DNA of 64,000 nt, from NCBI GenBank assembly GCA_001799735.1, contig MGUA01000020.1, positions 7,572 to 71,571 of the forward strand. Reading direction: 5' to 3'. Made by a program: the position numbers and the translations under genes. Shown here piece by piece: positions 1-26,165 of this stretch. Positions within the stretch are counted from its first letter, which is position 1; each line of letters opens with the position of its first letter. A model generated the notes under the pieces. The model made no database searches, was not told where the DNA came from, and saw only the letters and a list, made by a program, of their open reading frames with translations. Source of the stretch: Elusimicrobia bacterium GWB2_63_22 (GTDB lineage: Bacteria; Elusimicrobiota; Elusimicrobia; Elusimicrobiales; UBA9959).

Positions 1-542
1 AGGGCGGGGTCGAAGCTCTGCACGCCGATGGCCAGCCATTCCACTCCGGCGGACTTCAGGAAGGCCAGCTTCTCCGGGTCCAGCGTATTGGGGCTGGCTT
101 CGAAAGCTATGCGGGTCTTGGGCGTGACCTTGAAATACGCGCGCAGCATTTTAAACATCCGGTCCAGCTGGGCTATGGTCAGCAGGCTGGGCGTGCCGCC
201 GCCTATGCAGAGGAACCTGAGCGGGCGGCCTTTGAAGAGCGGCCCCAGGATCTTTATTTCTTTCTCCAGCGCGTCCAGGAAGCGGTCGATGGCACCGGGC
301 GCGGCCGGGAGTTTATAGAAACCGCAGAAGCGGCAGAGGGTTTCGCAGAAAGGCACGTGCACGTAGACCACCGGCCTGCGGCCGCCGTCGGAACGGAGCG
401 ACCGGCGCCAGGCCGCCACTATTTTCTCCGTGCCGCGCAGCTCGGGCCAGGCCGCCATGGGCGGATAATTGGGCGGGGCCTCCGGCAGGGAGTCCCTGTC
501 GGCGCAGGCCAGCAGCCGCTCTATGTCCATGGCGGCTTTCAT
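1..542 (-). CDS. HemN-like (coproporphyrinogen-III-oxidase family, class C type) radical SAM protein; C-terminal part lies beyond the window edge
   Basis: Hand translation of the minus strand from ATG 542..540 gives MKAAMDIERLL...VVYVHVPFCETLCRFCGFYK...FLCIGGGTPSLL...WLAIGVQSFDP. This has CxxxCxxC in the HemN-type context plus GGGTPS and GVQS motifs. It is absent from the ORF track because no stop lies in the window. ATGA start/stop overlap with the upstream gene at 539..542. Confidence 0.75.
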   Translation of the reverse strand, partial: MKAAMDIERLLACADRDSLPEAPPNYPPMAAWPELRGTEKIVAAWRRSLRSDGGRRPVVYVHVPFCETLCRFCGFYKLPAAPGAIDRFLDALEKEIKILGPLFKGRPLRFLCIGGGTPSLLTIAQLDRMFKMLRAYFKVTPKTRIAFEASPNTLDPEKLAFLKSAGVEWLAIGVQSFDPA

Positions 543-1930
543 TGATAACCCTCCGCCCAGCCTTCCAGCATTTTGCGCGCCGCCGGCTCTTTTAGTTTTG
601 CGAGCAGCAGGTCCGACACGCCCATGAAGACCCGGCAGCGGCCGTTGGTCATCATGTCGCCCCAGAAACCGCCCTGCGCCGCGTGGTTATAGACCGGAGA
701 GACCCGGCACCAGGCGCTGTGCGGGCAGCGCGCGCAGCGCGGCTGCGTCAGCCGCGGGAAACAGGAAAGGATCAGAGTCCTGCCCAGCGGGGAGGAGGCC
801 AACCGGCAGAAGGAGTCCTCCACCGAGCCCAGCCTGAAGAATTCGTTGCCGCCGGCGGCCAGCAGGCGAGCCTCGTCGGAACCGTAGACGGAGCCGTCGG
901 GCCCATAGGCCAGGCGGTACAGCAGGTCCAGGTTCTGGTAGCGCGGGCGTTCGCCGCCCACCATCTGCTTGAGGAACATCAGCGCGCCCTTCTCATACAC
1001 CGCCACGCCCCTGCGGTTCAGGCGCAGCATATACTCCAGGGCTTCGGCGTAGAAAGCGAGGAATTCTTCCGGGGTCACGGCCAGGCCCGCGCGGGCGGCG
1101 CGGCCGATAGGCTCCAGCGGTCCCAGCTGCACGCGCTTGATGCCGCGCTTTAAAAATTCGTCCACTATCGCCTTCGGCTGCGACAGGGAATATTTAGTGA
1201 CGGTGCAGATGGCGTTAAGAGGTTCCAGCTCCCCGGCCGCCGCGAGCTTCTGTACCAGGGCTATGCCGCGGACGGCGGCGGCGTGGCTGGAGCCGCCGGA
1301 ATACTTGCGGCCGCTGTCGTGGATGGCCGCGGGGCCGTCGAGCGAGGTGCATAAGGTCACCTTGTTCGCCGCCAGGTAGGCCAGTTTTTCGGCCGTAAGG
1401 CCGGCCAGGTTGGAGACCATGGAGAAATGCAGGCTCTGTCCCCCCCGCGCCGCGAGCCGTTTGGCCTCGCCTATCATGTACTGCACCACGCCGAAATTGC
1501 GCAGCGGCTCTCCGCCCTGGAATTCTATCACCAGTTCAGGGGCGCCCGTGCTGAAGATGAAATTGAGCGTCTTCTTAGCCGTCGCGCGGGTCATGTGGGA
1601 GCCGCCGGAGCCGGACGAGGCACCGCAATAAAGGCAGGCGTGGTCGCAGTCGGCCGTCACGGCTACGATATGCACCCTGGGGCCTTTCCAATCGGCCAGC
1701 AGGGCCGCGAAATGCCGCGGCAGCAGCCTGGCGAAATCCAGCCGGCCGGAGAAAAAGCCTTTCTCCTCCAACCCCTTGCGCAAGGCCGGCGGCAGGGCCG
1801 CGCCGCGGGCGAAACGGGACAGCTCAGCGGCGCTCAGCTCCGTGGTCATGGACAGATCATTGGACAGCAGCCTGCCTCCGCCGCGGCGGGCGAAGTTGAA
1901 CTCCATGGGGCGGTCGTCCCTCTTCGCCAT
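539..1930 (-). CDS. Radical SAM / SPASM-type maturase, HxsB-like; paralog of 20692..22146
   Basis: 463 aa with CDHACLYC (CxxxCxxC), IEFQGGEPL, and a C-terminal Cys block (CARCPHSAWC..., CRVFMG). Alignable by eye over most of its length with the 484-aa protein at 20692..22146 (IEFQGGEPL, CTSLDGPA, GGSSHAA vs GGNSHAA, LNRRG). Confidence 0.8.
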   Translation of the reverse strand: MAKRDDRPMEFNFARRGGGRLLSNDLSMTTELSAAELSRFARGAALPPALRKGLEEKGFFSGRLDFARLLPRHFAALLADWKGPRVHIVAVTADCDHACLYCGASSGSGGSHMTRATAKKTLNFIFSTGAPELVIEFQGGEPLRNFGVVQYMIGEAKRLAARGGQSLHFSMVSNLAGLTAEKLAYLAANKVTLCTSLDGPAAIHDSGRKYSGGSSHAAAVRGIALVQKLAAAGELEPLNAICTVTKYSLSQPKAIVDEFLKRGIKRVQLGPLEPIGRAARAGLAVTPEEFLAFYAEALEYMLRLNRRGVAVYEKGALMFLKQMVGGERPRYQNLDLLYRLAYGPDGSVYGSDEARLLAAGGNEFFRLGSVEDSFCRLASSPLGRTLILSCFPRLTQPRCARCPHSAWCRVSPVYNHAAQGGFWGDMMTNGRCRVFMGVSDLLLAKLKEPAARKMLEGWAEGYQ

Positions 1931-3012
1931 CAGATGTAACCCTTCTTAAAAAGTTTTATCAGGCGCTTCAGGTAGGCCTTCATGGCCGGCTCGGCGGCGG
2001 ACCTGCGCACCAGCTCCGCCGCGGCGGCGCGGCAGACTTCCGTGCGCAGGGCGTGGGCGCGGCTGCCGTCGGCCAGGCCGGGCAGGCGGTAATAGGAGCG
2101 GGCGCAGGCCAGGCAGCGGCGGGAACCGGCGGCAGGAGCGCAGGCGGCGTATTTTTTAGCCACCCCCCCATCAGCCGTGCCGATGGCCGCGGCCCTGCGC
2201 TCGGCGGCAGTGCGCAGGAAAGGGTAAGGGTAGAAGGAGAGGGTGCCGTCGGGGAAGAGTTCCAGGTCGCGCAGGAAAGGGCAGAAGGTGCTCTTGAATT
2301 CTTTGTCCCTGAGGAATTCCAGCAGCGGCTCCAGCACCACCGGGGATTTGTCCCCCGCGTGCGCCAGGGTGTAGGCGGCTATCTTTTTCATGCCGGCTTC
2401 GAAAGCTTTATAGTCGGCGGCCCGCCAGGGGAAACCGTGCACGCATTCTATGCCGATATTTCGGAAGCCGTCCTCCGCCAGCCGCAGGAAATCCTGGTAG
2501 GCGGCCGCGGCGCGCCGCGGGTGCACGCAGAGTATGACGTGCAGACCCTCGCCCAGCTTTGAGAGGAACATCGGGATCTTGGCCTCCACGGCGGCGTGGG
2601 AGCCTTTCCCGGAAATAAATTTGCGCGACAGGTCGTGGCTGCGGCCGCTGCCGGAGAAGCTCACGGCGAAACGGACGCCGCGGGCGGCCAGCCAGTCCAG
2701 CTGCTCGGCGCCGGCCAGCACGCCGTTGCTGGCCACGGAGACGGCGAGGGTCTTGCCGAGTTTTCTGGCGAGTGAGCGGGCGGCGGTGATGATGGTTTTG
2801 ACCAGTTCGAATTCCATCAGGGGCTCGCCGCCGTAGATCTCGAGGGTCTTGGTCCGGCCGGGGGAGCGCAGGAAGGTCTCCACGGCCTTCAGGGCGGAGG
2901 GAGCGGGGATGGTCTCGACCCGGCTCTTGTCGATAAAGCAATGCGTGCACCGCAGGCAGCAGCCCGAGGTGACGGCTATCTTGAACTTCAGTATTTCCTT
3001 GTTGAACTTCAT
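1930..3012 (-). CDS. Radical SAM protein, HxsC-like by size and pairing with the HxsB-like gene
   Basis: 360 aa with GCCLRCTHC cluster motif, IYGGEPL, and C-terminal Cys residues (FCPF..., CLAC). Its stop overlaps the downstream start by 1 nt (TGATG at 1928..1932). The HxsC assignment is positional, not verified. Confidence 0.7.
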   Translation of the reverse strand: MKFNKEILKFKIAVTSGCCLRCTHCFIDKSRVETIPAPSALKAVETFLRSPGRTKTLEIYGGEPLMEFELVKTIITAARSLARKLGKTLAVSVASNGVLAGAEQLDWLAARGVRFAVSFSGSGRSHDLSRKFISGKGSHAAVEAKIPMFLSKLGEGLHVILCVHPRRAAAAYQDFLRLAEDGFRNIGIECVHGFPWRAADYKAFEAGMKKIAAYTLAHAGDKSPVVLEPLLEFLRDKEFKSTFCPFLRDLELFPDGTLSFYPYPFLRTAAERRAAAIGTADGGVAKKYAACAPAAGSRRCLACARSYYRLPGLADGSRAHALRTEVCRAAAAELVRRSAAEPAMKAYLKRLIKLFKKGYI

Positions 3013-3040
3013 CGTTATTTCAGTTTCCGGTCATCGCTGC

Positions 3041-3169
3041 GCCGCCACCGGGGCAGGAACGCAAAAACGTGGTCTCGCACACCGTGCTCGCCACTCCCCG
3101 TCTCGGCCCTCGCGCTTACGCAAGCTCGGGCCTCCGACAGGGTTTTGCTAACCCTGCCCCGGCGTCGGC
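3041..3169. repeat. Possible degenerate, shorter third copy of the palindromic intergenic element seen at 30505 and 41613
   Basis: Flanking inverted repeat: ccggggcagg (3048..3057) pairs with cctgccccgg (3153..3162), extendable to 15/17. Inner segments tcgcacaccgtgctcgc and tctcggcc resemble ctcggcacacagtgcctcgc and tctcggcc of the full copies. The similarity is weak. It overlaps the 3' end of CDS 3116..4180. Confidence 0.3.
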
Positions 3170-4180
3170 ACGAAGCCCCTTCTTCTTAAGTAAAACCTGA
3201 GCCCTCTTCAAGCGGTTGTGGGAGGGCACCAGCGGGAAGGGGACGGCTGGTTTACGGACGGGGCGGAATTCGCTGCCGCCGAACAGGTCCGAGTACCATT
3301 TCTCGAAGCCCATGCAGCGCGCGTTGTAGATACAGGCCTCGCAGCCCTTGTTCTTGAGGCAGAGGCGCTCTTTGAGGCCGTGGATGCGGTCCTCGCGGCC
3401 GTCGATATGGAACAGCGGCTCGTCCTTCGTCCCGGCCGGGCGCTCCCATTCGGCCATCAGGTGGACGGCCTCCGGGAGATTGCAGGGCGTAAAATTCACC
3501 AGCACCGTGTCCTCTATCGCCGCGCCGGAATCCTTGAGATAGGCCAGCGCCTCGCGCACATAAGGCACGGCCTGGGTCACGCTCACCTTCAGCTCGGAGG
3601 CCCGCGCGGCCATCATGCCGTTGTAATGCGGGAAGATCACGTTAAAATCTTCTATGCCGAAGCGCCCGCTGATGATCTCCAGCAGGGGCTTGAGCTTTTT
3701 ATAGTTTCTCTTGTTGAGCGCGTGGTTGACGGAGATCTCGGCGCCCAGGCGCGTGAGGTTGTCGAAGGCCTTCATCACTTTTTTAAAGGCGCCCGGCACG
3801 CCGACCAGGGCGTCGTGGGTGGCGGCGTCGGGGCCGTGCACCGAGACGCGGAAAATGTTGGCCCCGGCCTCCACCAGCTCCCTGGCGTAGGCGGGGTCGG
3901 CCAGCTTGAGGCCGTTGCTCATCACCTGCACGTAGGGGTAGCCCATGTCGCGAGCTATCCGCACTATCTTGGGCAGGTCGGGGCGCATGGTGATCTCGCC
4001 GCCTATCAGGTAGGCGACCCAGCATTTTTCCCGGCGGCCCTTGTACAGCGCCTCGGCGGCCTTGGCAAAAGGCATGCGCTCCGCCACCTGGTTCAGCACC
4101 GCTTCCGGGTGGTAGCAGAACCTGCATTTAGCGTTGCAGTCGTAGTTCAGTATGACTTCGCAGTTGCGCGGTTTTATCAT
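3116..4180 (-). CDS. Radical SAM protein with C-terminal twitch/SPASM-like CxxCx5CxG motif; tandem paralog of 4177..5247
   Basis: 354 aa with CNAKCRFC, LIGGEITMRPD, and C-terminal CEACIYNARCMG. It carries a ~30-aa C-terminal extension relative to its paralog, and that extension is encoded by the repeat-like sequence at 3116..3200. Confidence 0.8.
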   Translation of the reverse strand: MIKPRNCEVILNYDCNAKCRFCYHPEAVLNQVAERMPFAKAAEALYKGRREKCWVAYLIGGEITMRPDLPKIVRIARDMGYPYVQVMSNGLKLADPAYARELVEAGANIFRVSVHGPDAATHDALVGVPGAFKKVMKAFDNLTRLGAEISVNHALNKRNYKKLKPLLEIISGRFGIEDFNVIFPHYNGMMAARASELKVSVTQAVPYVREALAYLKDSGAAIEDTVLVNFTPCNLPEAVHLMAEWERPAGTKDEPLFHIDGREDRIHGLKERLCLKNKGCEACIYNARCMGFEKWYSDLFGGSEFRPVRKPAVPFPLVPSHNRLKRAQVLLKKKGLRADAGAGLAKPCRRPELA

Positions 4181-5247
4181 ATCTCAAAAAGGGTCTTAAC
4201 CGCGAAAGAGCGCGGGGCCCTGGCCAGCGGCTTGAACTCCCTGCCGCCGGCGAGCTTTATGTACTCGGCGTCGAAGCCGCGGCAGCGCCGGTCCAGCGCG
4301 CAGCGCGCGCAGCTGGCAGGCTTGCAGCTCTGCAGGTTCTTCATCTCGGCCATGTTCACCACGGCCCCGTCGGCCGGCATCAGGGGGTCGCCTTCGGAGA
4401 TATCGGATTCCCAGTCGGCCAGCAGGTTCATATGGCGCGGCAGCAGGCAGGGGGTGAAGTTGACCAGCACGCGGTTGAGCGCGGGCACGCCGGACTTTTT
4501 AAAGACTTCCATCCCTTTGACTATATAGGGCAGGGTTTTAGAAATATTCACGCGCAGCAGTTTTTCATTGCAGGCCATCACGCCGCGGTAATGCCCGTAG
4601 ATGATGTTGAAGTAGTTTACGCCCAGGCCGTTATAGGCAAAGTCCATAAACTTCGGAAAATGTTTATAGTTCAGCGCGTTGACCACCAGGTTAGTGCCGG
4701 TCTCGCGGCCCAGCTCCCGCACATTGCGCATGGCCCGCACGGCCTTGTCGAAAGCGCCCGGCACGCCCACCAGCCGGTCATGCAGCGCCGCGTTGTGCCC
4801 GTGCAGGGACACGTCGAACATGTTGAAACCGGCGGCCGCCATCCGTTTGGCGTAGGCCGGGTCGGCCAGGCGCGCGCCATTGGTGCAGAGCTTTATGCAG
4901 GAGTAGCCGGCCTTCCGGGCGAAGGAGGCGACCTTGTCGATATCGCCGCGCAGCGTCGGTTCCCCGCCGATCACGGCGGCTATCCAGCAGCCCTGCCGGC
5001 GGCCCGTGTAGAGGGCCTTGAAGATCTCCTCCAGCGAGGGCTCCGGGCCGTTCGCGAAGGAGCCCGGTTCGGCGTAGCAGAACAGGCAGCGGTTATTGCA
5101 GGCGGAATTTACGGTAACCTCGCAGACCCGGGCTTTAAGGCTGACGGGCCAGCGTATATTGGCGAGGCGCGCCGCGAGGACGGCCTTGTTCAGGCCGGGC
5201 GTTCTGCCGGTCGCGAACCTTATGTTCTTTTCAAGCAATGAGTTCAT
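4177..5247 (-). CDS. Radical SAM protein with C-terminal twitch/SPASM-like motif; tandem paralog of 3116..4180
   Basis: 356 aa with CNNRCLFC, VIGGEPTLRGD, and C-terminal CARCALDRRCRG. ATGA overlap with the downstream paralog (4177..4180). Clearly alignable with 3116..4180 (SLHG/SVHG, LVGVPGAF, VNFTPC). Confidence 0.8.
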   Translation of the reverse strand: MNSLLEKNIRFATGRTPGLNKAVLAARLANIRWPVSLKARVCEVTVNSACNNRCLFCYAEPGSFANGPEPSLEEIFKALYTGRRQGCWIAAVIGGEPTLRGDIDKVASFARKAGYSCIKLCTNGARLADPAYAKRMAAAGFNMFDVSLHGHNAALHDRLVGVPGAFDKAVRAMRNVRELGRETGTNLVVNALNYKHFPKFMDFAYNGLGVNYFNIIYGHYRGVMACNEKLLRVNISKTLPYIVKGMEVFKKSGVPALNRVLVNFTPCLLPRHMNLLADWESDISEGDPLMPADGAVVNMAEMKNLQSCKPASCARCALDRRCRGFDAEYIKLAGGREFKPLARAPRSFAVKTLFEI

Positions 5248-5320
5248 TCAAGACAAAGCCAACTTTCCCGGCGTTTACGGGTGCCGGGATATTATTATTA
5301 TATAATTAAAGCCTGAAATT

Positions 5321-6676
5321 ATGGCGGAACTCTCGGAACAGGCTTTTGACGCCTTCCTGGCGGCCCTGCGGCGCCTGGATTACACCGGCTATGCCGAGCA
5401 ACACCCGCCTTTCGGCAGCTGGCAGGATTTCGGCCGCCAGGGCGCCGGCATAAAGGCCGCCTGGGGGCGCAGCCTGGGGCTCACAAAAGAGGCCGGGCTG
5501 TTCGTCAACGTGCCGTTCTGCCGCGCCCGCTGCCGCTTCTGCTTCCTGCCGGTCACGGCCATCGGCTCTTCCGGCGAAAAGAGGACCGCCTCTTTCAGGC
5601 GCTATCTTTCCGCGCTGGACAAGGAAGCCGCCCTCTACGCCCCGCTTTTCAAGAACGTCCGTTTTTCCACTCTCTACATCGGCGGCGGCACGCCGTCCAT
5701 GATGACGCCGGCCGAGACCCGTGAGTTCTTTGCCCTGCTGCGCCGGCGCTTCAAGGTGTCGCGCAGCGCGCAGACCGTACTGGAGCTGCACCCCGACGAC
5801 GTGACGGAAGAAAAACTTTCGGCCTACACGGACTGCGGCGTCAGCCGGGTCTGCATCGGCGTGCAGTCCATGGACGCGGAAGTCCTCAACGCGAACTCCC
5901 GGCGGCAGGGCCTGGCCCAGGTGGCCGCCGCGCACGCCGCGCTGAAGGCCCGCGGCATCGGCGTCAACATCGACCTCATCTGCGGCCTGCCCGGCCAGGA
6001 CCGCGCCAGCTTCCTCTCCGGCCTGAAGAAGGTCATAAAACTCGGGCCGGACCAGGTGCACCTGAACACTTTCATCAACACCCCGTACACAGTGCACGCC
6101 ATGACCGGCGGCAAGGCCGGCGACGAGCGGGCCGTGGAGGCGCTGCGCGCCCAAGGCTTCCGGCTGCTGGCCCGCGCCGGCTACCTAAAGATAGATTCCG
6201 ATTCGATGGGCCGCACGAAAGAGTCCCGCAACAGGCAGACCACGGACCTGAGCGGCAGGCGCTCGGTACTGGGCCTCGGGCCCGGCGCCGTCTCGCGCGC
6301 TTTCGGCGCGGCGCGCTACATTAACCGCGCGGGCTGGGACGGCTGGCTGGCGCGGGCCGGCTCCGGCCTTTGCCCGGCCGACAGGGGCGTTTTCTGCGGC
6401 CCCGAAGACGAGATGATCTACTCGGCCCTGACAAAGTTCACCGACGAGCAGGCCATGGACCTGGCCTGGTTCCGCCGCGTCCACAAGGCCGATTTCCTGA
6501 AAGTCTTCGCGCCCGAAGCGGCCGCGCTTAAAACCGCCGGCGCAAAACTGTCCGGCGGCAAATTCAGGCTCCCGCATAATATGTGGGGGCTGGTGCGGCG
6601 CCTCTTCTACCGCCCAGACGTTATCGCCCGCGGCCTGGCCAACCTGAAAAGGGTCCGGCGTCCGGGCCCGCGCTGA
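5321..6676 (+). CDS. HemN-like (class C type) radical SAM protein
   Basis: 451 aa with FVNVPFCRARCRFCF, YIGGGTPS, RVCIGVQS and NIDLICGLPGQ. These are hallmark motifs of the oxygen-independent coproporphyrinogen oxidase / HemN-like family. Divergent from the rSAM operon at 1..5247. Confidence 0.8.
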   Translation: MAELSEQAFDAFLAALRRLDYTGYAEQHPPFGSWQDFGRQGAGIKAAWGRSLGLTKEAGLFVNVPFCRARCRFCFLPVTAIGSSGEKRTASFRRYLSALDKEAALYAPLFKNVRFSTLYIGGGTPSMMTPAETREFFALLRRRFKVSRSAQTVLELHPDDVTEEKLSAYTDCGVSRVCIGVQSMDAEVLNANSRRQGLAQVAAAHAALKARGIGVNIDLICGLPGQDRASFLSGLKKVIKLGPDQVHLNTFINTPYTVHAMTGGKAGDERAVEALRAQGFRLLARAGYLKIDSDSMGRTKESRNRQTTDLSGRRSVLGLGPGAVSRAFGAARYINRAGWDGWLARAGSGLCPADRGVFCGPEDEMIYSALTKFTDEQAMDLAWFRRVHKADFLKVFAPEAAALKTAGAKLSGGKFRLPHNMWGLVRRLFYRPDVIARGLANLKRVRRPGPR

Positions 6677-6696
6677 GCCCCGCGCAAAAATATTTC

Positions 6697-7917
6697 ATGT
6701 CCACGGTAAAAATAAACCAGCTCCTTCTCCGCAGGCTGTCGCCCGGCTCCGGCAACGGCCCGGAGGGGCTCTACGAGCAGGCCGTCACCCGGGGCCACGG
6801 CGGCGACATCCCCGGCATGCGCGCGCTGTTCGCGCGCTTCGCGGTCTCGGCGGGGCGGGACGCAGACCCGGAAAAACTGTTCCGGGCCCTGATGGAACTG
6901 CGCCTGTACGCCAGGGCTTTCGCCGCCGGAGAAAAGCTAGTGCGGCTCAGGGGCTCGGACCGGCTGCCTCTAAAAGACCCTTTCATCGACATTCGCTTCG
7001 CCCCCCCGCCGGGCTATTACGAAGAGCATATCCGTTCCCTGCGCCGGTTCAGGGCAGGCGCTGGGAGCGAGGCGTGGAAGAATTACTATCTGGGAGCGCT
7101 GCACCGCCGGCTTAACCGGCTGGAGGAGGCGCTGGTCTTTTTCAACAAGGCCCGGCCGGCCGGACCTGCCTATGGCTGGATGCGCTTCCAGCGCGGCTGG
7201 ACGCTGCTCAACCTGGGCGGGGATCTGCGGGAGGCGGAGGCCGACCTGCGCGCCGCCGTCCGCGCCGACGGGGCGGACTGGGTGGCGCGCTGCCTGCTCG
7301 GGGAAACCCGCATCTGCGCCGGCCGGAGAGCCGGGGGGCTTAAAGATTTTTCCGCGGCCCTGAAGGCCGCGCCGGCGCACTCGGCCGACATCGCCGCGTG
7401 GCGCGGCCAGATGCGCCTCCTGTACGGCGACTACCGCGGGGCGCTCGGGGACCTCAGGGCGGCCAATAAAAAAAAGAGCGTTTTTTCCTACTGCTGGCTG
7501 GGGGCCGCCTGGCTCTGCCTCGGGAAAACCGGCAAAGCCCTCTCCCTCCTGCGCCAGGCGGTGCGGCTGCTGCCGCGGGACGCCGAAGCCCGGCTCTGGT
7601 ACTGCGAGGCCCTGCGGAGGCTTGGCCGCCGGGGAGCGGCGCTGCGCCAGCTCTCCTTCGCCGGCGACGGCAACTGGACCAGGGCCAACAAGACGCTCCT
7701 GCACGCCCAGGCCGGGCGCTATTCCGAAGCTTTCGGCTGGTACCTGAAACTGGACGGGGAAATAAGGCTGAGGCTGGAAAAAGAAACCGGCCTGAGGCCG
7801 GTGGACGCGCCCGCCCTGGCGGGGCTGATGGAAGCCCTCTTTAAAAAAGCCCTCGGCAACCGCACAGACAAGCGCTACCTCTACACCCGGTGGCTGACGC
7901 CGCCGCCCCGCGCCTGA
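6697..7917 (+). CDS. TPR-repeat protein
   Basis: ORF-track entry 6583..7917, trimmed to the first ATG after the upstream stop (MSTVKINQ..., 38 codons in). Repeated Ala/Leu/Arg-rich helical pairs with TPR-like spacing, e.g. WYCEALRRLGRRGAALRQL and AWLCLGKTGKALSLLRQAVRLLPRDAEA. Confidence 0.6.
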   Translation: MSTVKINQLLLRRLSPGSGNGPEGLYEQAVTRGHGGDIPGMRALFARFAVSAGRDADPEKLFRALMELRLYARAFAAGEKLVRLRGSDRLPLKDPFIDIRFAPPPGYYEEHIRSLRRFRAGAGSEAWKNYYLGALHRRLNRLEEALVFFNKARPAGPAYGWMRFQRGWTLLNLGGDLREAEADLRAAVRADGADWVARCLLGETRICAGRRAGGLKDFSAALKAAPAHSADIAAWRGQMRLLYGDYRGALGDLRAANKKKSVFSYCWLGAAWLCLGKTGKALSLLRQAVRLLPRDAEARLWYCEALRRLGRRGAALRQLSFAGDGNWTRANKTLLHAQAGRYSEAFGWYLKLDGEIRLRLEKETGLRPVDAPALAGLMEALFKKALGNRTDKRYLYTRWLTPPPRA

Positions 7918-7960
7918 ACCGCGGGTAGAACTTCCTCAGCCGCGGTTTTTTCGCTAGAAT

Positions 7961-9088
7961 GTGGGCATGGGGTTCCGGGGGCTACTGCGCACGCTGCTGC
8001 TTTCTTTGCCTATGCTGGCATTGAGCGCCTACCTGCTTACAAGGGGCGTTATTCCTCCGGATTGGCCGCACCGGGCCGCGCTCCTCCTGGTTTTCTTTTT
8101 TTTCAACGCCGCTTTCATAGCGATGATACATACCGGCAAGACGGACCGCTGGCGGGCCCCGCTTTTTATCGCTATCGCCGGCCTGTTCGCCGTCTCCTTC
8201 ATGGGCAACATGCTGGAACTCAACTCCCGGCAGGGCGAATTTGTGGATTTCATCTTCCGGGATAGCGTGCCCATGTGCCCGGTCGTGATCCCGATGATGC
8301 TGATCCCGGCCGCCGTCGGCAAGACCATTATCTGGCCCGGGGCCGTCGCCGGCACCTACGCCGCCGCGGGGCTCATGTTCGTCATCTGGCTGGCCGCTTC
8401 GCTGGGCCTGGGCAAGGCCTGGTGCGGCTGGGGCTGCTTCTTCGGCGGCCTCGACGACGCTTTCTCGCGCCTGCTGCCCAGGGCGCTCCTCGGCACGCCG
8501 GGCTGGCTCAGGGCGCTGCCCTATGCCGTACTCATAGTGTTCGCGCTGCTGACCGCCGCCTCCATGATGCCGGCCTATTGCGGGCTTCTCTGCCCGGTCA
8601 AGGCCGCGACGGAACTGCCGCCGGGAGACTTTGTCAGCGACAAGCTCATGCTCTGGGTGCACCTGGGCATGTTCGGAGCTTTTACCGCGGCGCTGCCGAT
8701 ACTTACCAAGCGCCGCGTCCAATGCGCCTTCATCTGCCCGCTGGGCGCGCTGCAGAACGGCATGGACCGCCTGGCCCCATTCAAGATGCGCGTGGACGCC
8801 GCCCGCTGCACCGCCTGCGGCGCCTGCGCAAAAAACTGTCCGGTCCTGGCGATAAAGCCGGGAACCGCAACCCCGGGCAGCGCCTGCGTCAAGTGCGGGC
8901 GCTGCGCCGATAATTGCCCGGCCGGGGCCATCAGTTTCTCCGTCAAAGGCGCCGTCCACTCCCCCGGTTCAGGGCGGCTGCTCTTTCTTTATCCGGCTTT
9001 TCTTTTTATGACGGGTTTCGGCGGCGGCATCTGCGTCGACGCCGTAGCCAGGCTCATTACCTTCGGCCTGACCGGGAGGCTGTTCTGA
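7961..9088 (+). CDS. Polytopic membrane polyferredoxin (NapH/NosR-like 4Fe-4S binding protein)
   Basis: 375 aa with multiple hydrophobic helices, a CGWGCFFGG motif, CPVKA and CPLGA, plus two classical ferredoxin motifs (CTACGACAKNCP and CVKCGRCADNCP). The start is either GTG 7961 or ATG 7967. Confidence 0.75.
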   Translation: MGMGFRGLLRTLLLSLPMLALSAYLLTRGVIPPDWPHRAALLLVFFFFNAAFIAMIHTGKTDRWRAPLFIAIAGLFAVSFMGNMLELNSRQGEFVDFIFRDSVPMCPVVIPMMLIPAAVGKTIIWPGAVAGTYAAAGLMFVIWLAASLGLGKAWCGWGCFFGGLDDAFSRLLPRALLGTPGWLRALPYAVLIVFALLTAASMMPAYCGLLCPVKAATELPPGDFVSDKLMLWVHLGMFGAFTAALPILTKRRVQCAFICPLGALQNGMDRLAPFKMRVDAARCTACGACAKNCPVLAIKPGTATPGSACVKCGRCADNCPAGAISFSVKGAVHSPGSGRLLFLYPAFLFMTGFGGGICVDAVARLITFGLTGRLF

Positions 9089-9540
9089 AACGCGTAAGGA
9101 ACGCTCCCTCCCTGCTCTGGGCGGCGCTGGCCACCCCGGCGGTATTCCTGTCCCTCGCCGGCAGCGACGCCTTCAGCCGCACCCTCGCGGAGAAATCCGG
9201 GCTGAAGATCTCTCCCCGGTTCACCGGCGGGGAAATAGTCGCCGAGACCAGGCACGGCGGGTACAAGACGCTGCTGCACCGGCCGGTCTTCGACGGCATC
9301 GCCGGCGAGCGGGAGACAGGCTTCATCCAGGTGGACTGGCGGCCGCTGCCGGCCCTGCCCCCGGAGCTGAGCGAGGAGATCCCGCTGCCCGGAGGAGGCA
9401 GTTTCCGGCTGAACGTGGAGACGGCCACCGGGCGGGTCTCCTGCGAAGGCGGCGGCGGCCGGGTACTCTGCGACCCCGGCACGGCGCGCGCGAAGAACGC
9501 CCTCACCGTGCGGGTCAAGCTTTACCGGCGCCGCGGCTGA
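9085..9540 (+). CDS. Hypothetical exported protein; start codon unresolved
   Basis: In frame with ORF-track entry 8914..9540, whose first ~57 codons overlap the polyferredoxin gene in another frame. A signal-like LLWAALATPAVFLSLAG begins just after the upstream stop. GGGAGG (~9074..9079) precedes a CTG at 9085, and I saw no in-frame ATG or GTG in the first ~55 codons after it. Confidence 0.3.
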   Translation: MKRVRNAPSLLWAALATPAVFLSLAGSDAFSRTLAEKSGLKISPRFTGGEIVAETRHGGYKTLLHRPVFDGIAGERETGFIQVDWRPLPALPPELSEEIPLPGGGSFRLNVETATGRVSCEGGGGRVLCDPGTARAKNALTVRVKLYRRRG

Positions 9541-9551
9541 ACCCCGCCGGC

Positions 9552-11219
9552 TCAGCGCCCCAGCGCGGGAATTATTTTATCGTTGGAGATCCTGAACAGG
9601 CCGCCGGCCCCGGCGGCGTAGAGATATTTTTTGGTCGCCGACAAGCCCTCGATGCGGGGCGTCACGTAGAAAGACCCCAGCCTTTTAGAAGAAGAGACCT
9701 CGTAGACCACCACGTCGCCGCCGAGATAGGACCCCGCGTAAAGAAATTTTCCGTCGGCGGAGAACTCCAGCTTCCTCACATGGAAGGGCGCGTCGATCTT
9801 GCCGATGATCTTCAGACTCTCCGCATCCAGCATGTAGATATCCTGCGTGAAGACCGAAGGGGCGTAGAGCCTGCGGCCGTCAGGCGACAGCGCCAGGTCC
9901 ATGAAGGCCCTGGAGGGATCGGAAGCGCCGGTCAGCTGCAGGGTATTTTCGTCGAACTCCAGGATGCGCCGGCCCGGCTGCGCGCCGATCCAGTGCATGA
10001 ACCACATCAGCCGCCAGAAACCCGGCCTGGCCGCGGGGTCCTGGCCGTAGAGCGAGACCAGGAGCGTGCGCCGGCGCGGGTTGCGCTTGACCTGGAAGAC
10101 CACGGCGCCGTTGCCGATCAGGCCGGCCTCGTGCAGCGACAGCGATTTGAGCAGCTTGCCCGAGCCGTCCAGGGCGAACAGCGCCGGGTTCAGGTTATTG
10201 ACCGCGTACACCCTGCCGCAGGCGTTATGCACGGCGAAGAGTTCCTCCACCGGCCACCCGCCGACCGAGGCCGGCAGCGGCAAGCGCTTGAGCGAATCGG
10301 CGCCGGGCACGTATTCCAGCAGGTACGGCGCGTGCCAGGGCGCGAAGTAAAGCCGCCCGGGGCATTCCGAAGAGAACCGCCGCACCTGGGACCCCTCGTA
10401 AAAAGCCCTGAACTCCGGGCGGAGCAGGTCTACCCAGGCGAAGCTCGGCCTGGGCGCCGCGTCGCGCCCGAAGGTGGCCCCAAAGGAGAGCGCGGCCCAG
10501 GAATCGTCGGGCGCCGCGTAGACCTCGTGGGGGTGCAGCGTCCCCGCGGGCCAGGGCTCGCCTTCGGCCCCGGCGTAACCCTCGGCCGGGAAAACCTTCT
10601 CCAGGCCCGCCGGCCGGGAGCGCAGCTCGCGCAGGGGCCCGCCGGGGTGGAAGTAAAGCAGGGCGAACAGCGCCGCGGCGCAGGCGGCGGGCAGCAGCAG
10701 CGTTACGGTAAGGCGGAAGGCGGAACGGCGATAGACGAGGGCCCAGTAGGCCGCGCCTATCAGGGCCAGCAGCGCCGCGGCCGGCAGCGGGTTGGCGTAC
10801 AGCAGGATCCAGCCCACAAAATGCCAGAGCCCCACCAGCGGCGCGAAGATGTCGGGGCGGCCGTGGGCGGTTATGGGGAAAAGGAAGAAGAGCACCGAGA
10901 GCAGGAGCAGCACCAGCATCCTGCCCGCCATTGGCAGCCAGACCAGGGGCCCGGGGCCCAGGCGTTTCGCCTCCAGCAGCCTGGTCGCCGCGTATTCTAA
11001 AACCAGCAGCGGCAAGGCGGCCGCGGCCGCGGTCCAAGCCGGCAGCGGCAGCAGGTACAGGAGATAACTGTGCGCGGAACGTATATAATATAACTGAGCG
11101 AAAGTTGCCGCGGCCGGGGCCAGCAGGTAAAAAACGGCCGCCCGGGACCCCGCCGGGAGCGGGGCTTTCTCTAAAATTTTAAAAAAATACTTTTTGATGT
11201 CAGAACTCGCCATTATCAT
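9552..11219 (-). CDS. Polytopic membrane protein with C-terminal beta-propeller (YVTN/YncE-like repeats)
   Basis: 555 aa. The N-terminal ~200 aa are very hydrophobic (several TM helices). The C-terminal part has repeated ...DG..LY....... blades (DGRRLYAPS, DGKFLYAGSY, KKYLYAAGAG). The first ~20 codons are AT-rich and overlap the divergent GT2 start, so the true start is uncertain. Confidence 0.6.
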   Translation of the reverse strand: MIMASSDIKKYFFKILEKAPLPAGSRAAVFYLLAPAAATFAQLYYIRSAHSYLLYLLPLPAWTAAAAALPLLVLEYAATRLLEAKRLGPGPLVWLPMAGRMLVLLLLSVLFFLFPITAHGRPDIFAPLVGLWHFVGWILLYANPLPAAALLALIGAAYWALVYRRSAFRLTVTLLLPAACAAALFALLYFHPGGPLRELRSRPAGLEKVFPAEGYAGAEGEPWPAGTLHPHEVYAAPDDSWAALSFGATFGRDAAPRPSFAWVDLLRPEFRAFYEGSQVRRFSSECPGRLYFAPWHAPYLLEYVPGADSLKRLPLPASVGGWPVEELFAVHNACGRVYAVNNLNPALFALDGSGKLLKSLSLHEAGLIGNGAVVFQVKRNPRRRTLLVSLYGQDPAARPGFWRLMWFMHWIGAQPGRRILEFDENTLQLTGASDPSRAFMDLALSPDGRRLYAPSVFTQDIYMLDAESLKIIGKIDAPFHVRKLEFSADGKFLYAGSYLGGDVVVYEVSSSKRLGSFYVTPRIEGLSATKKYLYAAGAGGLFRISNDKIIPALGR

Positions 11220-11928
11220 CCCCGCCTACAACTCGGCAAAAAGCGTAGAGCCTACCCTGGAACGCCTGGCCGCCGTGCTGCCGCGCCTGCCGCGCGCGGC
11301 CGTGCTGCTGGTGGACGACGGCAGTTCAGACGGCACCGCCGCGGCGGCCGCGGCCGCCGGGCAGAGGCTGGGCCTGGACCTGCGCGTGCTGCCCCACCTG
11401 GCCAACCGCGGCTACGGCGCCGCGCAGAAAACCGGCCTGAAGGCCGCGCTGGAGTCCGGCTGCCGGGCGGCGGTCCTGCTGCATGCCGACGGGCAGTACG
11501 CCCCCGAAGAGCTGCCGGCCATAACGGCGCCTGTTTTCTCCGGCGCCGCGGACGTCTGCGTGGGCTCCCGGCTGCTGTCCGGCCAGGCCAGGCAACAGGG
11601 CATGCCGTTCGCGCGCTACTGGGCCAACCGCGGGCTCACCGCCCTGGAGAACCTGGTGTTCGGCCTGGATTTCGCCGAGTACCACACCGGCTACCTGGCC
11701 TACTCGGCCGGGGCGCTGCGCGCCATCCGGTTCGACACCCTGACCGATAAATTCCATTTCGACGGGGAGATGCTGCTCTGCTCCGGCAAGCTCGGCCTGC
11801 GCGTGGCCCAGGTGCCCGTCTCCGCCTATTACGGCCCCGGCTCTTCCAGCCTGGCCCCCCTGCCTTATCTCGCCGAGATCGCCGGCGTGCTGTTTAAATA
11901 CCTGCGCCGCGGCTATTTCTTTCAGTGA
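11194..11928 (+). CDS. Family 2 glycosyltransferase (Dpm1/polyprenol-phosphate sugar synthase-like)
   Basis: 244 aa with LAIIIPAYNS, VDDGSSDGT, NRGYGAA and HADGQY. This is the typical GT2 (GT-A fold) N-terminal motif set. Confidence 0.8.
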   Translation: MMSELAIIIPAYNSAKSVEPTLERLAAVLPRLPRAAVLLVDDGSSDGTAAAAAAAGQRLGLDLRVLPHLANRGYGAAQKTGLKAALESGCRAAVLLHADGQYAPEELPAITAPVFSGAADVCVGSRLLSGQARQQGMPFARYWANRGLTALENLVFGLDFAEYHTGYLAYSAGALRAIRFDTLTDKFHFDGEMLLCSGKLGLRVAQVPVSAYYGPGSSSLAPLPYLAEIAGVLFKYLRRGYFFQ

Positions 11929-15669: not shown

Positions 15670-15692
15670 TTAAATATTATCAAATCTGGCGT

Positions 15693-18969: not shown

Positions 18970-19302
18970 CTAGCACCAGCCGCCGCGGGCGTGCGAACCG
19001 TGGCTGCCGTGCGAACCGTGGCTGCCGTGCGAACCATGGCTGCCGTGCGAGGCGTGCGAACCGTGGCTGCCGTGCGAGCCGTGGCTGCCGTGGCTCTGGT
19101 GGCTGACGTGCGAGGTCGGGTCGGCCGGCGGGTAGAAGTAGTTCTGGTGGATGGTCTGCGCGCTCGCCTGGTCCACCATCGCCGCGCCGAGTATGCCCAG
19201 CGCGAGGCCGGCCTTCACTATGTCGGCGTCAAGCATCTTCCCCTCTTCGCTGTTGAGGAAGAGCTTTATATTCTTTTTTACTCCGGGTTTTTTCTTTTTC
19301 AT
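18970..19302 (-). CDS. His-Xaa-Ser repeat peptide (HxsA-like precursor candidate), 110 aa
   Basis: ORF-track entry 18970..19317 begins at a TTG. Five codons in there is an ATG (19302) preceded by AAGGAG with a 6-nt spacer. Product: MKKKKPGVKKNIKLFLNSEEGKMLDADIVKAGLALGILGAAMVDQASAQTIHQNYFYPPADPTS, then HVS-HQS-(HGS)4-HAS-(HGS)6, then HARGGWC. Confidence 0.8.
   Translation of the reverse strand: MKKKKPGVKKNIKLFLNSEEGKMLDADIVKAGLALGILGAAMVDQASAQTIHQNYFYPPADPTSHVSHQSHGSHGSHGSHGSHASHGSHGSHGSHGSHGSHGSHARGGWC
18994..19110 (-). repeat. Coding tandem repeat: 13 x 9 nt, organised as ~18-nt units gtgcgaaccgtggctgcc, encoding His-Xaa-Ser
   Basis: Direct reading shows gtgcgaaccgtggctgcc repeated with minor variants from ~18991 to ~19110 on the plus strand. 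On the minus strand it is in frame with the peptide CDS. Confidence 0.85.
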
Positions 19303-25937: not shown

Positions 25938-26102
25938 TCTTCCTCCGTTGATCGGCTTGGGGGTTTTTGCGCGCCCGGGATGCAACCGTTGGGCGCCCTG
26001 ACCCGTAGTATTTATGTCAGCGATATCAAACTCCGCTAATTCTAGCATAAAATACGGGAAAGACCGATTTATGCCGCGCGGCAAAAATAGTAAGATATCT
26101 AT

Positions 26103-26137: not shown

Positions 26138-26165
26138 AGGGCGCTCCGCCCGATTTTTTAAGGAT

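What the first reader, a model, noticed from the sequence alone, without database searches (positions are those of the whole stretch)
1..5247. Five consecutive radical SAM genes, including a second HxsB-like/HxsC-like pair with no precursor gene in view
Minus-strand order: twitch-rSAM (356 aa) -ATGA- twitch-rSAM paralog (354 aa) - 103-nt gap - HxsC-like (360 aa) -1-nt overlap- HxsB-like (463 aa) -ATGA- HemN-like (partial, continues beyond position 1).
The 463-aa protein is a clear paralog of the HxsB-like enzyme at 20692..22146. I found no His-Xaa-Ser or other repeat peptide ORF between 1 and 9.5 kb.
Either the cognate substrate lies beyond the window edge, or both enzyme sets act on the single peptide at 18970..19302. 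Together with 5321..6676, 11922..13391, 15693..17789, 17786..18874 and 20692..22146 this makes ten rSAM genes in 22 kb, a density I would consider exceptional.
Basis: partly seen in the sequence, partly recalled or inferred. Interest (0 to 1): 0.75.

Follow-up and report, generated by a model that had tools for sequence, protein, structure and literature searches.

The report
Radical-SAM array of split HxS cluster
These five genes are the start of a run of eight radical-SAM enzyme genes that, judging from related genomes, works on the single His-Gly-Ser repeat peptide encoded 14-17 kb away, making an unusually large (13 radical-SAM enzymes) and uncharacterised relative of the HXS peptide-maturation system.

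Summary
The five co-directional radical-SAM (rSAM) genes are real, at the stated coordinates and with the stated overlaps. Two labels need correcting. The 463-aa protein is HxsB-like, but the 360-aa protein is not HxsC-like. The two "twitch" paralogs (354 and 356 aa) are the HxsC-like ones.

The same contig, recovered from public assemblies, shows the run continues past position 1. It adds the rest of a 720-aa HemN-like protein, an HxsC-like protein, a third HxsB and the most HxsC-like protein. That gives eight consecutive rSAM genes and 13 in about 27 kb. I found no precursor gene in the 7.6 kb beyond the edge.

In 17 of 21 other loci, mostly Elusimicrobia, that carry this HxsB subtype, an (H-x-S)n precursor ending in RGGWC lies 0-4.5 kb away on the same strand. 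In this lineage an insert of about 12.5 kb splits the cluster. The subtype occurs only with GGWC-tailed precursors.

This rests on comparative genomics, not on biochemistry. It is a hypertrophied variant of the HXS system, previously noted only as an "rSAM suite".

The parts
1..542 (-). N2: the first 180 codons of a 720-aa HemN-like rSAM protein. The rest lies beyond the window edge.
   Evidence: Translation. The full-length protein comes from L001 11389-13551. Scores are STM4012 178 bits, ChuW 160, HemN 145, all below cut-off; the HemN_C domain scores 27.4, above its cut-off of 24. A C-terminal extension of about 270 aa ends in the same CxxCx5C motif as the HxsC-like proteins.
539..1930 (-). 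B2: a 463-aa HxsB-like rSAM maturase of a distinct old subtype, with an RRE-like N-terminus and a reduced SPASM cysteine set.
   Evidence: TIGR03978 scores 314.9 bits against a cut-off of 370, matching the full length. It forms a separate clade in the NJ tree. It lacks three cysteines that B1 and B3 keep, and has gained Cys242. The AF2 model has pLDDT 86.7 and its best Foldseek matches are CteB and anSME.
1930..3012 (-). P1: a 360-aa rSAM protein with a PapB/HxsB-like core and no N-terminal RRE. It is translationally coupled (TGATG) to B2.
3013..3115 (-). 103-nt intergenic gap with no credible peptide ORF.
   Evidence: The only ORFs are 21-30 codons long with GTG or TTG starts.
3116..4180 (-). 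C2: a 354-aa HxsC-like rSAM protein with a C-terminal Cx6CxxCx5C motif.
   Evidence: HxsC4 scores 90.5 bits and HxsC 83.1, both below cut-off. It is 40% identical to C1.
4177..5247 (-). C1: a 356-aa HxsC-like rSAM protein and the first gene of the eight-gene array.
   Evidence: HxsC4 scores 105.4 bits and HxsC 94.3. The ATGA overlap with C2 is confirmed.
5248..5320 (.). AT-rich divergent intergenic region between C1 and N1, probably a promoter region.
   Evidence: Sequence. It contains a promoter-like hexamer pair at 5274-5301. These are consensus matches only.
5321..6676 (+). N1: a 451-aa HemN-like rSAM protein, divergent from the array and the first gene of the insert.
   Evidence: It is 33% identical to N2. 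All HemN-type models score below cut-off.
6697..9540 (+). Three genes in a row: a TPR protein, a NapH-like membrane polyferredoxin (7967-9088) and a membrane-anchored protein of about 150 aa.
9552..11928 (.). A beta-propeller-like protein (9552-11219, minus strand) and a GT2 glycosyltransferase (about 11275-11928, plus strand).
11922..17789 (-). Four genes co-directional with hxsA4: B12-binding rSAM b12a (489 aa), a sugar-1-P nucleotidyltransferase, an FAD oxidoreductase and B12-binding rSAM b12b (698 aa).
17786..18874 (-). P0: a 362-aa PapB-like rSAM protein and a paralog of P1 (26% identity), immediately downstream of hxsA4.
18970..19302 (-). hxsA4: the only precursor gene. It encodes 110 aa: a K-rich N-terminus, an FLNSEEGK motif, a hydrophobic stretch, 13 H-x-S repeats and a C-terminal RGGWC.
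   Evidence: NF038313 scores 67.1 bits, above its cut-off of 55. Sequence. It is the only HxS-repeat ORF in the window.
19314..20384 (-). X391: a signal- or TM-anchored Cys-rich protein with no family match. It is conserved at this position in related loci.
20378..20695 (-). HxsD-like small protein.
   Evidence: TIGR03976 scores 37.2 bits against a cut-off of 50.
20692..22146 (-). B1: a bona fide HxsB (484 aa).
   Evidence: TIGR03978 scores 473.3 bits, above its cut-off of 370.
22118..22579 (-). D0: a second HxsD-like protein (153 aa) and the first gene of the hxsA4 operon.
   Evidence: TIGR03976 scores 42.9 bits against a cut-off of 50. It is 47% identical to the Pfam-HxsD protein of L008.

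Best explanation
Region 1-5247 is the promoter-proximal part of one eight-gene, co-directional rSAM operon. Its order is C1-C2-P1-B2-N2-C3-B3-C4. Most of N2 and all of C3, B3 and C4 lie beyond the left edge of the window.

This operon is the detached half of an HxsA4-type His-Xaa-Ser maturation supercluster in a groundwater Elusimicrobiales bacterium. The supercluster spans about 27 kb and holds 13 rSAM genes. Its only substrate gene is hxsA4 at 18970-19302.

The following steps are inferred, not shown:
- The conserved leader of HxsA4 is recognised by the RRE-like N-terminal domains of the three HxsB paralogs (B1, B2, B3).
- B3-C4, together with B1 and the two HxsD-like proteins, carry out the ancestral HXS-type chemistry on the 13 H-x-S repeats.
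- B2 is found only with precursors that end in RGGWC. Together with its translationally coupled partner P1, which has no RRE, and the HxsC-like C1 and C2, it adds further modification. The target may be the C-terminal RGGWC.
- The HemN-like proteins (N1, N2) and B12-binding proteins (b12a, b12b) act as tailoring enzymes. Methyltransfer is likely, as in class C and class B rSAM enzymes.
- The NapH-like polyferredoxin may supply electrons.

In this lineage an insert of about 12.5 kb of accessory genes (5.3-17.8 kb) has separated the two halves.
For: 1. The contig continues past position 1 with N2 (720 aa), C3 (298 aa), B3 (472 aa, HxsB at 431 bits, above cut-off) and C4 (296 aa, best hit HxsC at 164 bits). 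Independent assemblies agree on this.

2. There is one HxS-repeat ORF in 64 kb plus the 7.6 kb beyond the edge. The 101-aa ORF beyond the edge has no homologue in any related locus. The intergenic gaps hold no peptide ORF.

3. Compact operons of the form D0-B1-D-X391-HxsA4-(C1/C2/P1)-B2-C3-B3-C4-TM-R5-R6-R7 occur in other Elusimicrobia (L008, L011, L014, L015, L017, L018, L020, L021, L035). In 17 of 21 other loci with a B2-type gene, the precursor lies 0-4.5 kb away on the same strand. In most of these the two genes are directly adjacent, with no mapped gene between them.

4. In the window's own lineage the same split order is found. L010 and L029 lie on one contig, and L006 and L034 match as well.

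5. The B2-type enzyme co-occurs with GGWC-tailed precursors. Seventeen loci have both. Thirty-five loci have other tails and no B2-type gene, and no locus has a B2-type gene with a non-GGWC precursor. Four loci have a GGWC tail without a B2-clade gene in view. These four are explained by a contig end (L028), the split arrangement (L029, L034) and a divergent B2-like copy (L035).

6. The AF2 model of B2 (pLDDT 86.7) has an N-terminal domain of three strands plus helices. It aligns over its full length with the RRE-bearing RiPP maturase CteB (TM 0.68/0.71), then with anSME, ChlB, TigE and SuiB.

7. B1, B2 and B3 are old, separate clades, each with orthologues across Elusimicrobia. All eight array genes are under purifying selection.

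8. In the canonical system, HxsB and HxsC mature HxsA (PMC13128918).
Against: There is no biochemical or expression evidence.

In this genome the array lies 13.7-17 kb from hxsA4, in a separate transcription unit behind a divergent promoter.

The synteny and GGWC associations are not phylogenetically independent, because they come from a few Elusimicrobia lineages.

Two loci (L013, L016) show a B2 array with no precursor within 10 kb.

B2, C1, C2, C3 and C4 all score below the curated HxsB and HxsC cut-offs.

The membrane protein and three rSAM genes (TM-R5-R6-R7) that follow C4 in relatives are missing here. Low-GC DNA takes their place, so the pathway may be incomplete or altered in this genome.

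The assignment of particular enzymes to particular residues is speculation.
Confidence: 0.7

Rival explanations
1. The array is an independent second RiPP cluster. Its own precursor is unrecognised: either a small unannotated ORF, or a gene further than 7.6 kb beyond the edge.
For: In this genome the array is a separate transcription unit 13.7 kb from hxsA4. L013 and L016 show B2 arrays with no precursor within 10 kb. A 101-aa ORF follows C4.
Against: No HxS or other repeat ORF occurs beyond the edge. The 101-aa ORF has no homologue in any other locus and no family match. Orthologous arrays abut hxsA4 directly in most other genomes. The B2 subtype tracks the GGWC tail of HxsA4.
Confidence: 0.1
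2. The rSAM suite makes or modifies a small-molecule cofactor, not a peptide. A tetrapyrrole is the candidate, as Meheust et al. 2020 proposed for rSAM suites next to Group VI nitrogenase-like genes.
For: The cluster has two HemN-like and two B12-binding rSAM proteins and a HemN_C domain. Some related loci hold NifH/NifD-like genes.
Against: No protein reaches the cut-off of any heme or cofactor family. HemN scores 145 against 325, ChuW 160 against 400, and NirJ and AhbD below 75 against 500 or more. The best matches of eight of the enzymes are Hxs or peptide-maturase families. The window has no Nfl gene. Where Nfl genes do occur, they sit inside operons that also encode an HxsD, an HxsB and an (HGS)n precursor (L092). 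HemN-like and B12-rSAM enzymes are common peptide and natural-product tailoring methylases (established knowledge).
Confidence: 0.1
3. Some or all of the array enzymes act on a different protein substrate encoded in the cluster, not on HxsA4. Candidates are the Cys-rich secreted X391 and the 150-aa membrane protein.
For: X391 is conserved next to hxsA4 and has 13 Cys. anSME-like enzymes do modify folded proteins.
Against: X391 is absent from several loci that keep B2 next to the precursor, such as L015, L020 and L022-L026. B2 carries an RRE-like domain of the kind typical for leader-peptide recognition.
Confidence: 0.07

Closest known systems
HXS antiphage system (hxsD-hxsB-hxsC-hxsA): Haft's TIGR03976-03979 models; Li et al., Nat Commun 2026, PMC13128918
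   Same: A His-Xaa-Ser repeat substrate is encoded together with an HxsB-type rSAM/SPASM enzyme, HxsC-type rSAM enzymes and small HxsD proteins. B1 and B3 pass the HxsB cut-off and HxsA4 passes its model's cut-off. B1, B3 and B2 are 35%, 33% and 31% identical to Aeromonas HxsB, and C4 is 27% identical to HxsC.
   Different: This cluster has 13 rSAM genes where the canonical system has 2. It has three HxsB paralogs, at least four short HxsC-like proteins that lack the roughly 110-aa N-terminal domain of canonical HxsC, and two HxsD-like genes. The gene order is different. HxsA4 has 13 mostly H-G-S repeats with no basic residues, no peptidoglycan-binding domain, and an RGGWC end. The host is Elusimicrobia, whereas 99.7% of canonical systems are in Pseudomonadota. 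No antiphage evidence exists for this cluster, and PADLOC returns only generic viperin-level rSAM hits.
'Extensive suite of radical SAM proteins' next to Group VI nitrogenase paralogs in groundwater Elusimicrobia (Meheust et al. 2020, doi 10.1101/765248; ISME J)
   Same: The phylum and habitat are the same. That paper reports up to 13 rSAM genes in a row, including B12-binding and HemN_C-containing ones. Related Hxs-type loci do contain NifH/NifD-like genes.
   Different: The window and the 7.6 kb beyond it hold no Nfl gene. The paper mentions no peptide and no Hxs family (0 occurrences) and infers a tetrapyrrole substrate.
RRE-dependent rSAM/SPASM RiPP maturases (CteB, SuiB, ChlB, TigE) and anSME
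   Same: B2 has the predicted architecture of RRE-like domain, rSAM core and C-terminal Cys-rich domain. The best structural match is CteB.
   Different: Sequence identity is only 13-19%. The B2 clade lacks three of the SPASM cysteines that its paralogs B1 and B3 keep. These pathways normally use one to three rSAM enzymes per precursor, not 13 (my own knowledge).

Membership tests
HXS system (HxsDBCA) | A His-Xaa-Ser repeat protein (HxsA) is encoded with the enzymes | tested here: met
   HxsA4 model NF038313 scores 67.1 bits, above its cut-off of 55, and the protein has 13 H-x-S repeats at 18970-19302. This gene lies 13.7-17 kb from the genes of the finding. In orthologous loci the two are adjacent.
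HXS system (HxsDBCA) | HxsB equivalog (TIGR03978 at 370 bits or more) | tested here: not met
   The 463-aa protein of the finding scores 314.9 bits. Its paralogs B1 (473.3) and B3 (431.3) do pass.
HXS system (HxsDBCA) | HxsC equivalog (TIGR03977 at 267.9 bits or more) next to HxsB | tested here: not met
   C1 scores 94.3, C2 83.1, C3 95.5 and C4 163.8 bits. For the 360-aa protein, HxsC is not among the top 25 families, and it has no BLASTP hit to Aeromonas HxsC.
HXS system (HxsDBCA) | HxsD small protein (TIGR03976 at 50 bits or more) | tested here: inconclusive
   The two candidates score 37.2 and 42.9 bits. HxsD is the top hit for both (the only one for the 153-aa protein), but both are below cut-off. 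Orthologues in L008 and L092 carry the precomputed Pfam HxsD domain PF27806.
HXS system (HxsDBCA) | Gene order hxsD-hxsB-hxsC-hxsA (99.6% of systems) | tested here: not met
   The order here is D0-B1-D-X391-A4-P0..., and the array is separate.
HXS system (HxsDBCA) | HxsA carries a peptidoglycan-binding domain and about five basic HxS repeats | tested here: not met
   Pfam finds no domain in HxsA4. It has 13 repeats, mostly H-G-S, with no Arg or Lys. Compare Aeromonas HxsA, which has HRS repeats.
HXS system (HxsDBCA) | Confers antiphage defence by blocking DNA entry | not testable with these tools
   This needs phage challenge experiments. PADLOC returns only weak generic viperin-type rSAM hits.
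RRE-dependent rSAM/SPASM peptide maturases | CxxxCxxC rSAM motif | tested here: met
   Cys95, Cys99 and Cys102 are invariant in 15 orthologues.
RRE-dependent rSAM/SPASM peptide maturases | N-terminal RRE (three-stranded sheet plus helices) | tested here: met
   The AF2 model has strands at 11-16, 19-24 and 29-33 and helices at 34-41 and 48-56. It aligns over its full length with CteB at TM 0.68/0.71. This is a predicted fold only.
RRE-dependent rSAM/SPASM peptide maturases | Complete seven-Cys SPASM motif (two auxiliary clusters) | tested here: not met
   The B2 clade lacks three cysteines that 100% of B3 and about 70% of B1 keep. One loss is a 5-residue deletion of the PCG loop. B2 keeps CX2CX5C...C, at Cys399, Cys402, Cys408 and Cys432.
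HemN / coproporphyrinogen dehydrogenase (partial ORF 3-542) | HemN equivalog score (TIGR00538 at 325 bits or more) | tested here: not met
   The full-length 720-aa protein scores 145.5 bits for HemN, 159.9 for ChuW (cut-off 400) and 178.1 for STM4012 (cut-off 380). The HemN_C domain is present.
Group VI NFL-associated rSAM suite (Meheust 2020) | Adjacency to nflH, nflD and nflK | tested here: not met
   There is no NifH P-loop or GCDPK motif and no BLAST hit in the window or in L001. Such genes are present in L020, L025, L039, L048, L071, L075 and L092.

The most novel reading that the evidence does not exclude
The Hxs-type superclusters of Elusimicrobia and Myxococcota use up to 13-16 rSAM enzymes to convert one ribosomal (His-Gly-Ser)n peptide into a heavily remodelled product. 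In some genomes they also use nitrogenase-like NflH/NflD reductases encoded inside the same operon. The product could be a peptide-derived redox cofactor or a metal-binding polymer. If so, the unexplained 'Group VI' nitrogenase-like enzymes would act on a peptide-derived substrate, not on a tetrapyrrole. The B2/P1 module of this window would be a dedicated enzyme set for the RGGWC terminus.
Probability: 0.25. Interest if true: 0.85.

Novelty: new variant of a known kind. Interest (0 to 1): 0.66.

Why it matters
RiPP and protein-maturation pathways normally use one to three rSAM enzymes per substrate. Thirteen enzymes converging on one 110-aa repeat peptide, including three HxsB paralogs of different cysteine content, would be among the most enzyme-rich peptide maturation systems known. 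It implies chemistry well beyond the single +8 Da change so far seen in canonical HxsA.

It also gives a concrete, testable substrate for the rSAM suites of groundwater Elusimicrobia, which have been read as tetrapyrrole-cofactor genes since 2020. By extension it gives one for the Group VI nitrogenase-like proteins, which in some relatives are encoded inside the same operons.

Finally, it shows that HXS-type systems are not confined to the four-gene antiphage form of Pseudomonadota.

Tried and rejected
- I searched all six frames of the window and of L001-L009 for H-x-S repeats. Only hxsA4 turned up.
- I listed ORFs of 20 aa or more in 1-9600 and read the 103-nt and 73-nt intergenic regions. 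No credible peptide gene is there.
- I tested the 101-aa ORF beyond the edge as a precursor. It has no NCBIfam or Pfam match and no homologue in any other locus, so I rejected it.
- I tested the roughly 150-aa protein at about 9085-9540 as a precursor. It is a conserved membrane-anchored protein without repeats, so I rejected it.
- I looked for NifH/NifD-like genes in the window and found none.
- I looked for remnants of the TM-R5-R6-R7 tail in the window and in L001. The matches were only to paralogs; after C4 comes low-GC DNA.
- PADLOC gave only generic viperin-level rSAM similarity.
- The promoter and terminator scan gave nothing beyond a weak promoter-like match in the divergent region.
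- A weak 'B2' hit in L047 would have broken the GGWC association. It turned out to be a generic rSAM protein without the C-terminal Cys motif.
- I compared the C-terminal extension of N2 with C3. Only the last 37 residues are similar, so a 'fused degenerate HxsC domain' is not established.

Full report
**Observation**

The minus strand of 1-5247 carries four complete ORFs and the start of a fifth, exactly as described:
- 4177-5247, 356 aa, here called C1
- 3116-4180, 354 aa, C2
- 1930-3012, 360 aa, P1
- 539-1930, 463 aa, B2
- 3-542, partial, N2

The junctions are ATGA, a 103-nt gap, TGATG (a 1-nt overlap) and ATGA. Each protein has a CxxxCxxC motif and a Pfam Radical_SAM match. Ten radical-SAM (rSAM) genes lie in 1-22146. 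The rest of the window is housekeeping (BamA, LpxD, glycogen branching enzyme, RelA/SpoT, an ABC transporter) with one unrelated rSAM gene at 48408-49430.

**Family assignment corrects two labels**

- B2 matches the HxsB model TIGR03978 end to end at 314.9 bits, below the cut-off of 370. It is 37% identical to the HxsB at 20692-22146 (B1, 473 bits).
Its best matches are the N-terminal rSAM cores of PapB, nif11 and SCIFF-type maturases at about 90 bits, and HxsB at 68 bits. HxsC is not in its top 25 families. Against a canonical Aeromonas hxsDBCA locus it hits HxsB and not HxsC.
- The two 'twitch' paralogs C1 and C2 (40% identical) are the HxsC-like proteins. Their best hits are HxsC4 (105 and 90 bits) and HxsC (94 and 83 bits), all far below cut-off.
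- N2 is HemN/ChuW/STM4012-like, also below every cut-off.

**Beyond the window edge**

The exact 463-aa protein is encoded on eight public contigs from groundwater metagenomes, including PRJNA268031. Two of them (L001, L003) extend 7.6 kb past position 1. The array continues co-directionally:
- N2 is 720 aa: a HemN-like core, a HemN_C domain, and an extension of about 270 aa.
- C3 is 298 aa, with HxsC4 at 146 bits.
- B3 is 472 aa, with HxsB at 431 bits, above cut-off.
- C4 is 296 aa, with HxsC at 164 bits. This is the best and a full-length match, and the protein is 27% identical to Aeromonas HxsC.

So the array has eight consecutive rSAM genes. The pair that most resembles canonical HxsB-HxsC (B3-C4) lies outside the window. 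With the divergent HemN-like N1 (5321-6676), the two B12-binding enzymes (11922-13391 and 15693-17789), P0 (17786-18874) and B1, the locus has 13 rSAM genes in about 27 kb.

After C4 comes a 101-aa ORF. It has no repeat, no family match, and no homologue in any of about 85 related loci. After that comes low-GC DNA, with GC falling from 0.62 to 0.46, encoding two secreted proteins. A six-frame search finds one HxS-repeat ORF in the window and none beyond the edge.

**Organism and paralogy**

Homologues of B2 come almost entirely from Elusimicrobia/Elusimicrobiales MAGs. Within the locus, B1 and B3 are 49% identical, and B2 is 37-38% identical to each. C1 to C4 form a family at 24-40% identity. 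P1 and P0 are 26% identical, and N1 and N2 are 33% identical.

A neighbour-joining tree of 115 HxsB-like proteins from 80 species-representative genomes puts B2, B3 and B1 in separate clades. Each clade has orthologues in many Elusimicrobia. These are old paralogs, not a recent duplication.

The B2 clade, together with a sister clade in another Elusimicrobia lineage, is set apart from B1 and B3 by its cysteines. It has lost three cysteines at SPASM positions, one of them through a 5-residue deletion of the PCG loop. It has gained Cys242. It keeps CX2CX5C...C. Loss of one auxiliary cluster is a reasonable inference but is untested.

All eight array genes have dN/dS of 0.15-0.25 against the relative in L006.

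**Comparative synteny is the key result**

I mapped all proteins of the locus onto the loci fetched so far, including the 80 from the genome scan. In other Elusimicrobia the two 'sets' form one operon. L011 reads D0-B1-D-X391-HxsA4-C1-P1-B2-C3-B3-C4-TM-R5-R6-R7. L008, L014, L015, L017, L018, L020, L021 and L035 are similar.

Of 21 other loci with a B2-type gene, 17 have the HxS precursor 0-4.5 kb away on the same strand. In most of these the two genes are directly adjacent, with no mapped gene between them.

The window's own lineage shows the same split arrangement. L006, L034, and L010 plus L029 (one contig) all have N1-TPR-ferredoxin-propeller-GT2-b12a-NTase-FAD-b12b inserted between P0 and C1. 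B12-binding and HemN-like rSAM genes recur next to HxS precursors in other lineages too (L040, L055, L059, L064). They look like interchangeable accessories.

**The precursor family**

Fifty-six loci encode peptides with this layout:
- a K-rich N-terminus
- an FL(N/S/T)SEEGK motif
- a hydrophobic stretch
- an HxNY motif
- between about 7 and more than 35 H-(G/A/S)-S repeats

The C-termini fall into two kinds: RGGWC (or CRGGWCNPRC), and GSW, GQW or GSY. The B2-type enzyme is found only with GGWC tails:
- 17 loci have a GGWC tail and a B2-type gene.
- 35 loci have another tail and no B2-type gene.
- No locus has a B2-type gene with a non-GGWC precursor.
- 4 loci have a GGWC tail without a B2-clade gene in view.

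Those four are explained by a contig end (L028), the split arrangement (L029, L034) and a divergent B2-like copy (L035). The association is striking, but it is not phylogenetically independent.

**Structure of B2**

The AF2 model of B2 (15-sequence alignment, pLDDT 86.7, pTM 0.87) shows an N-terminal domain of three strands plus helices, an rSAM barrel and a helical Cys-rich C-terminus. Foldseek aligns it over its full length with the RRE-bearing sactipeptide-type maturase CteB (TM 0.68/0.71). The next matches are anSME, ChlB, TigE, SuiB and SkfB, all peptide- or protein-modifying enzymes. Sequence-level PDB matches are weak.

**Model**

Shown:
- gene content, order and families
- old paralogy and purifying selection
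- absence of a second precursor within reach
- conserved adjacency of B2 arrays to hxsA4 elsewhere

Inferred:
- HxsA4 is the common substrate.
- The RRE-like domains of B1, B2 and B3 read its leader.
- B3-C4, with B1 and the two HxsD-like proteins, perform the ancestral HXS chemistry. In E. coli that chemistry is a +8 Da change on one SHRSS motif plus N-terminal processing (PMC13128918).
- P1 (no RRE, translationally coupled) works with B2 and with C1 and C2 on a lineage-specific step that may involve the RGGWC end.
- The HemN-like and B12 enzymes are tailoring methylases.
- The NapH-like polyferredoxin feeds electrons.
- The glycosyltransferase, nucleotidyltransferase and FAD enzyme may add a sugar.

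The biological role is open. HxsA4 has no peptidoglycan-binding domain, and its repeats carry no Arg or Lys. The electrostatic DNA-trapping model proposed for canonical HxsA does not obviously transfer. A His-rich metal-binding or cofactor-like product is equally conceivable.

**Comparison with what is known**

The closest system is HXS (hxsDBCA). It was recently shown to be an antiphage system and is 99.7% confined to Pseudomonadota. NCBIfam already carries HxsA4 and HxsC4 models, so curators have seen the variant. I found no paper describing it.

Meheust et al. 2020 reported up to 13 rSAM genes, some with B12-binding or HemN_C domains, next to Group VI nitrogenase paralogs in groundwater Elusimicrobia. 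They proposed tetrapyrrole cofactor synthesis. Their text contains no mention of Hxs or of a peptide. A 2026 review still lists the function as unknown or tetrapyrrole-related.

The window has no Nfl gene. Related loci do:
- In seven related Hxs-type loci, NifH-like genes, some fused to an Oxidored_nitro domain, sit inside the operon.
- L092 (Elusimicrobia RBG_16_66_12) reads HxsD, HxsB, (HGS)n precursor, two rSAM genes, NflH, an NflD-like gene, then six rSAM genes.

I did not test phylogenetically whether these NifH-like proteins belong to Group VI.

**Verdict**

The feature is real and was correctly flagged as unusual, but it is not a self-contained second cluster. It is the detached half of a hypertrophied HXS-type (HxsA4) maturation system that is conserved in Elusimicrobia. 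The rSAM density had been noticed before. The link to a single repeat peptide, the three-paralog HxsB architecture and the B2-GGWC coupling had not, as far as the searchable literature shows.

I rate it a new variant of a known kind, with interest 0.66. My confidence that the array acts on HxsA4 is about 0.7.

Noticed in passing
L092 5295-20837; also L020 2454-5246, L025 3718-6279, L039 7738-8634 and 17171-19552, L048 12529-15316, L075 11915-15215: Nitrogenase-like NifH genes sit inside Hxs-type operons. One example scores Pfam Fer4_NifH at 220 bits, and several are fused to or followed by an Oxidored_nitro (NifD/K-like) protein. These operons also encode HxsD, HxsB and an (HGS)n precursor. 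This suggests the 'Group VI' nitrogenase paralogs of Elusimicrobia and Myxococcales belong to a peptide-maturation pathway, not to tetrapyrrole metabolism. I did not test Group VI membership by phylogeny.
   Followed up: partly
L001 16752-19570 (beyond the left edge of the window, about -4.8 to -7.6 kb): In relatives (L006, L010, L011 and others) C4 is followed by a 383-aa polytopic membrane protein and three more rSAM genes. In this genome low-GC DNA takes their place (GC 0.45-0.53 against 0.62-0.69). It encodes a 101-aa orphan ORF and two secreted proteins. Two assemblies (L001 and L003) show the same junction.
   Followed up: partly
window 18970-19302 and precursors in L008-L089: The (H-x-S)n precursors fall into C-terminal classes: RGGWC or CRGGWCNPRC, versus GSW, GQW or GSY. 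The HxsB subtype with the reduced cysteine set (the B2 clade) occurs only with the GGWC class (17 loci with both, 35 with neither, none with B2 but a different tail).
   Followed up: yes
L001 11389-13551 (the N-terminus is window 3-542): The HemN-like protein N2 carries a C-terminal extension of about 270 aa that Pfam does not cover. Its last 37 residues share the CxxCx5C...G(F/W)xx(F/L)K motif found at the end of the HxsC-like proteins (BLASTP E=1e-5 against C3).
   Followed up: partly
window 19314-20384: A Cys-rich protein with a signal peptide or TM anchor (13 Cys, no family match) is conserved between hxsD and hxsA4 in many Elusimicrobia loci. It occupies the position that hxsC holds in canonical systems.
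   Followed up: no
L091 (Enhygromyxa salina PVNL01000142.1, 22891-44015): A cultured myxobacterium encodes NflH-NflD-NflK homologues (49% identical to the Hxs-linked NflH) with no rSAM or Hxs gene within 10 kb. It could serve as a tractable organism for the nitrogenase-like part, and it shows that the linkage is not universal.
   Followed up: no
window 24633-27788 (minus strand) and 26166-28637 (plus strand): A 1051-codon ORF has PIN and PhoH domains only in its C-terminal 430 residues. It overlaps a BamA (Omp85/POTRA) gene on the other strand. The real PIN-PhoH gene is probably much shorter, about 24633-25925.
   Followed up: no
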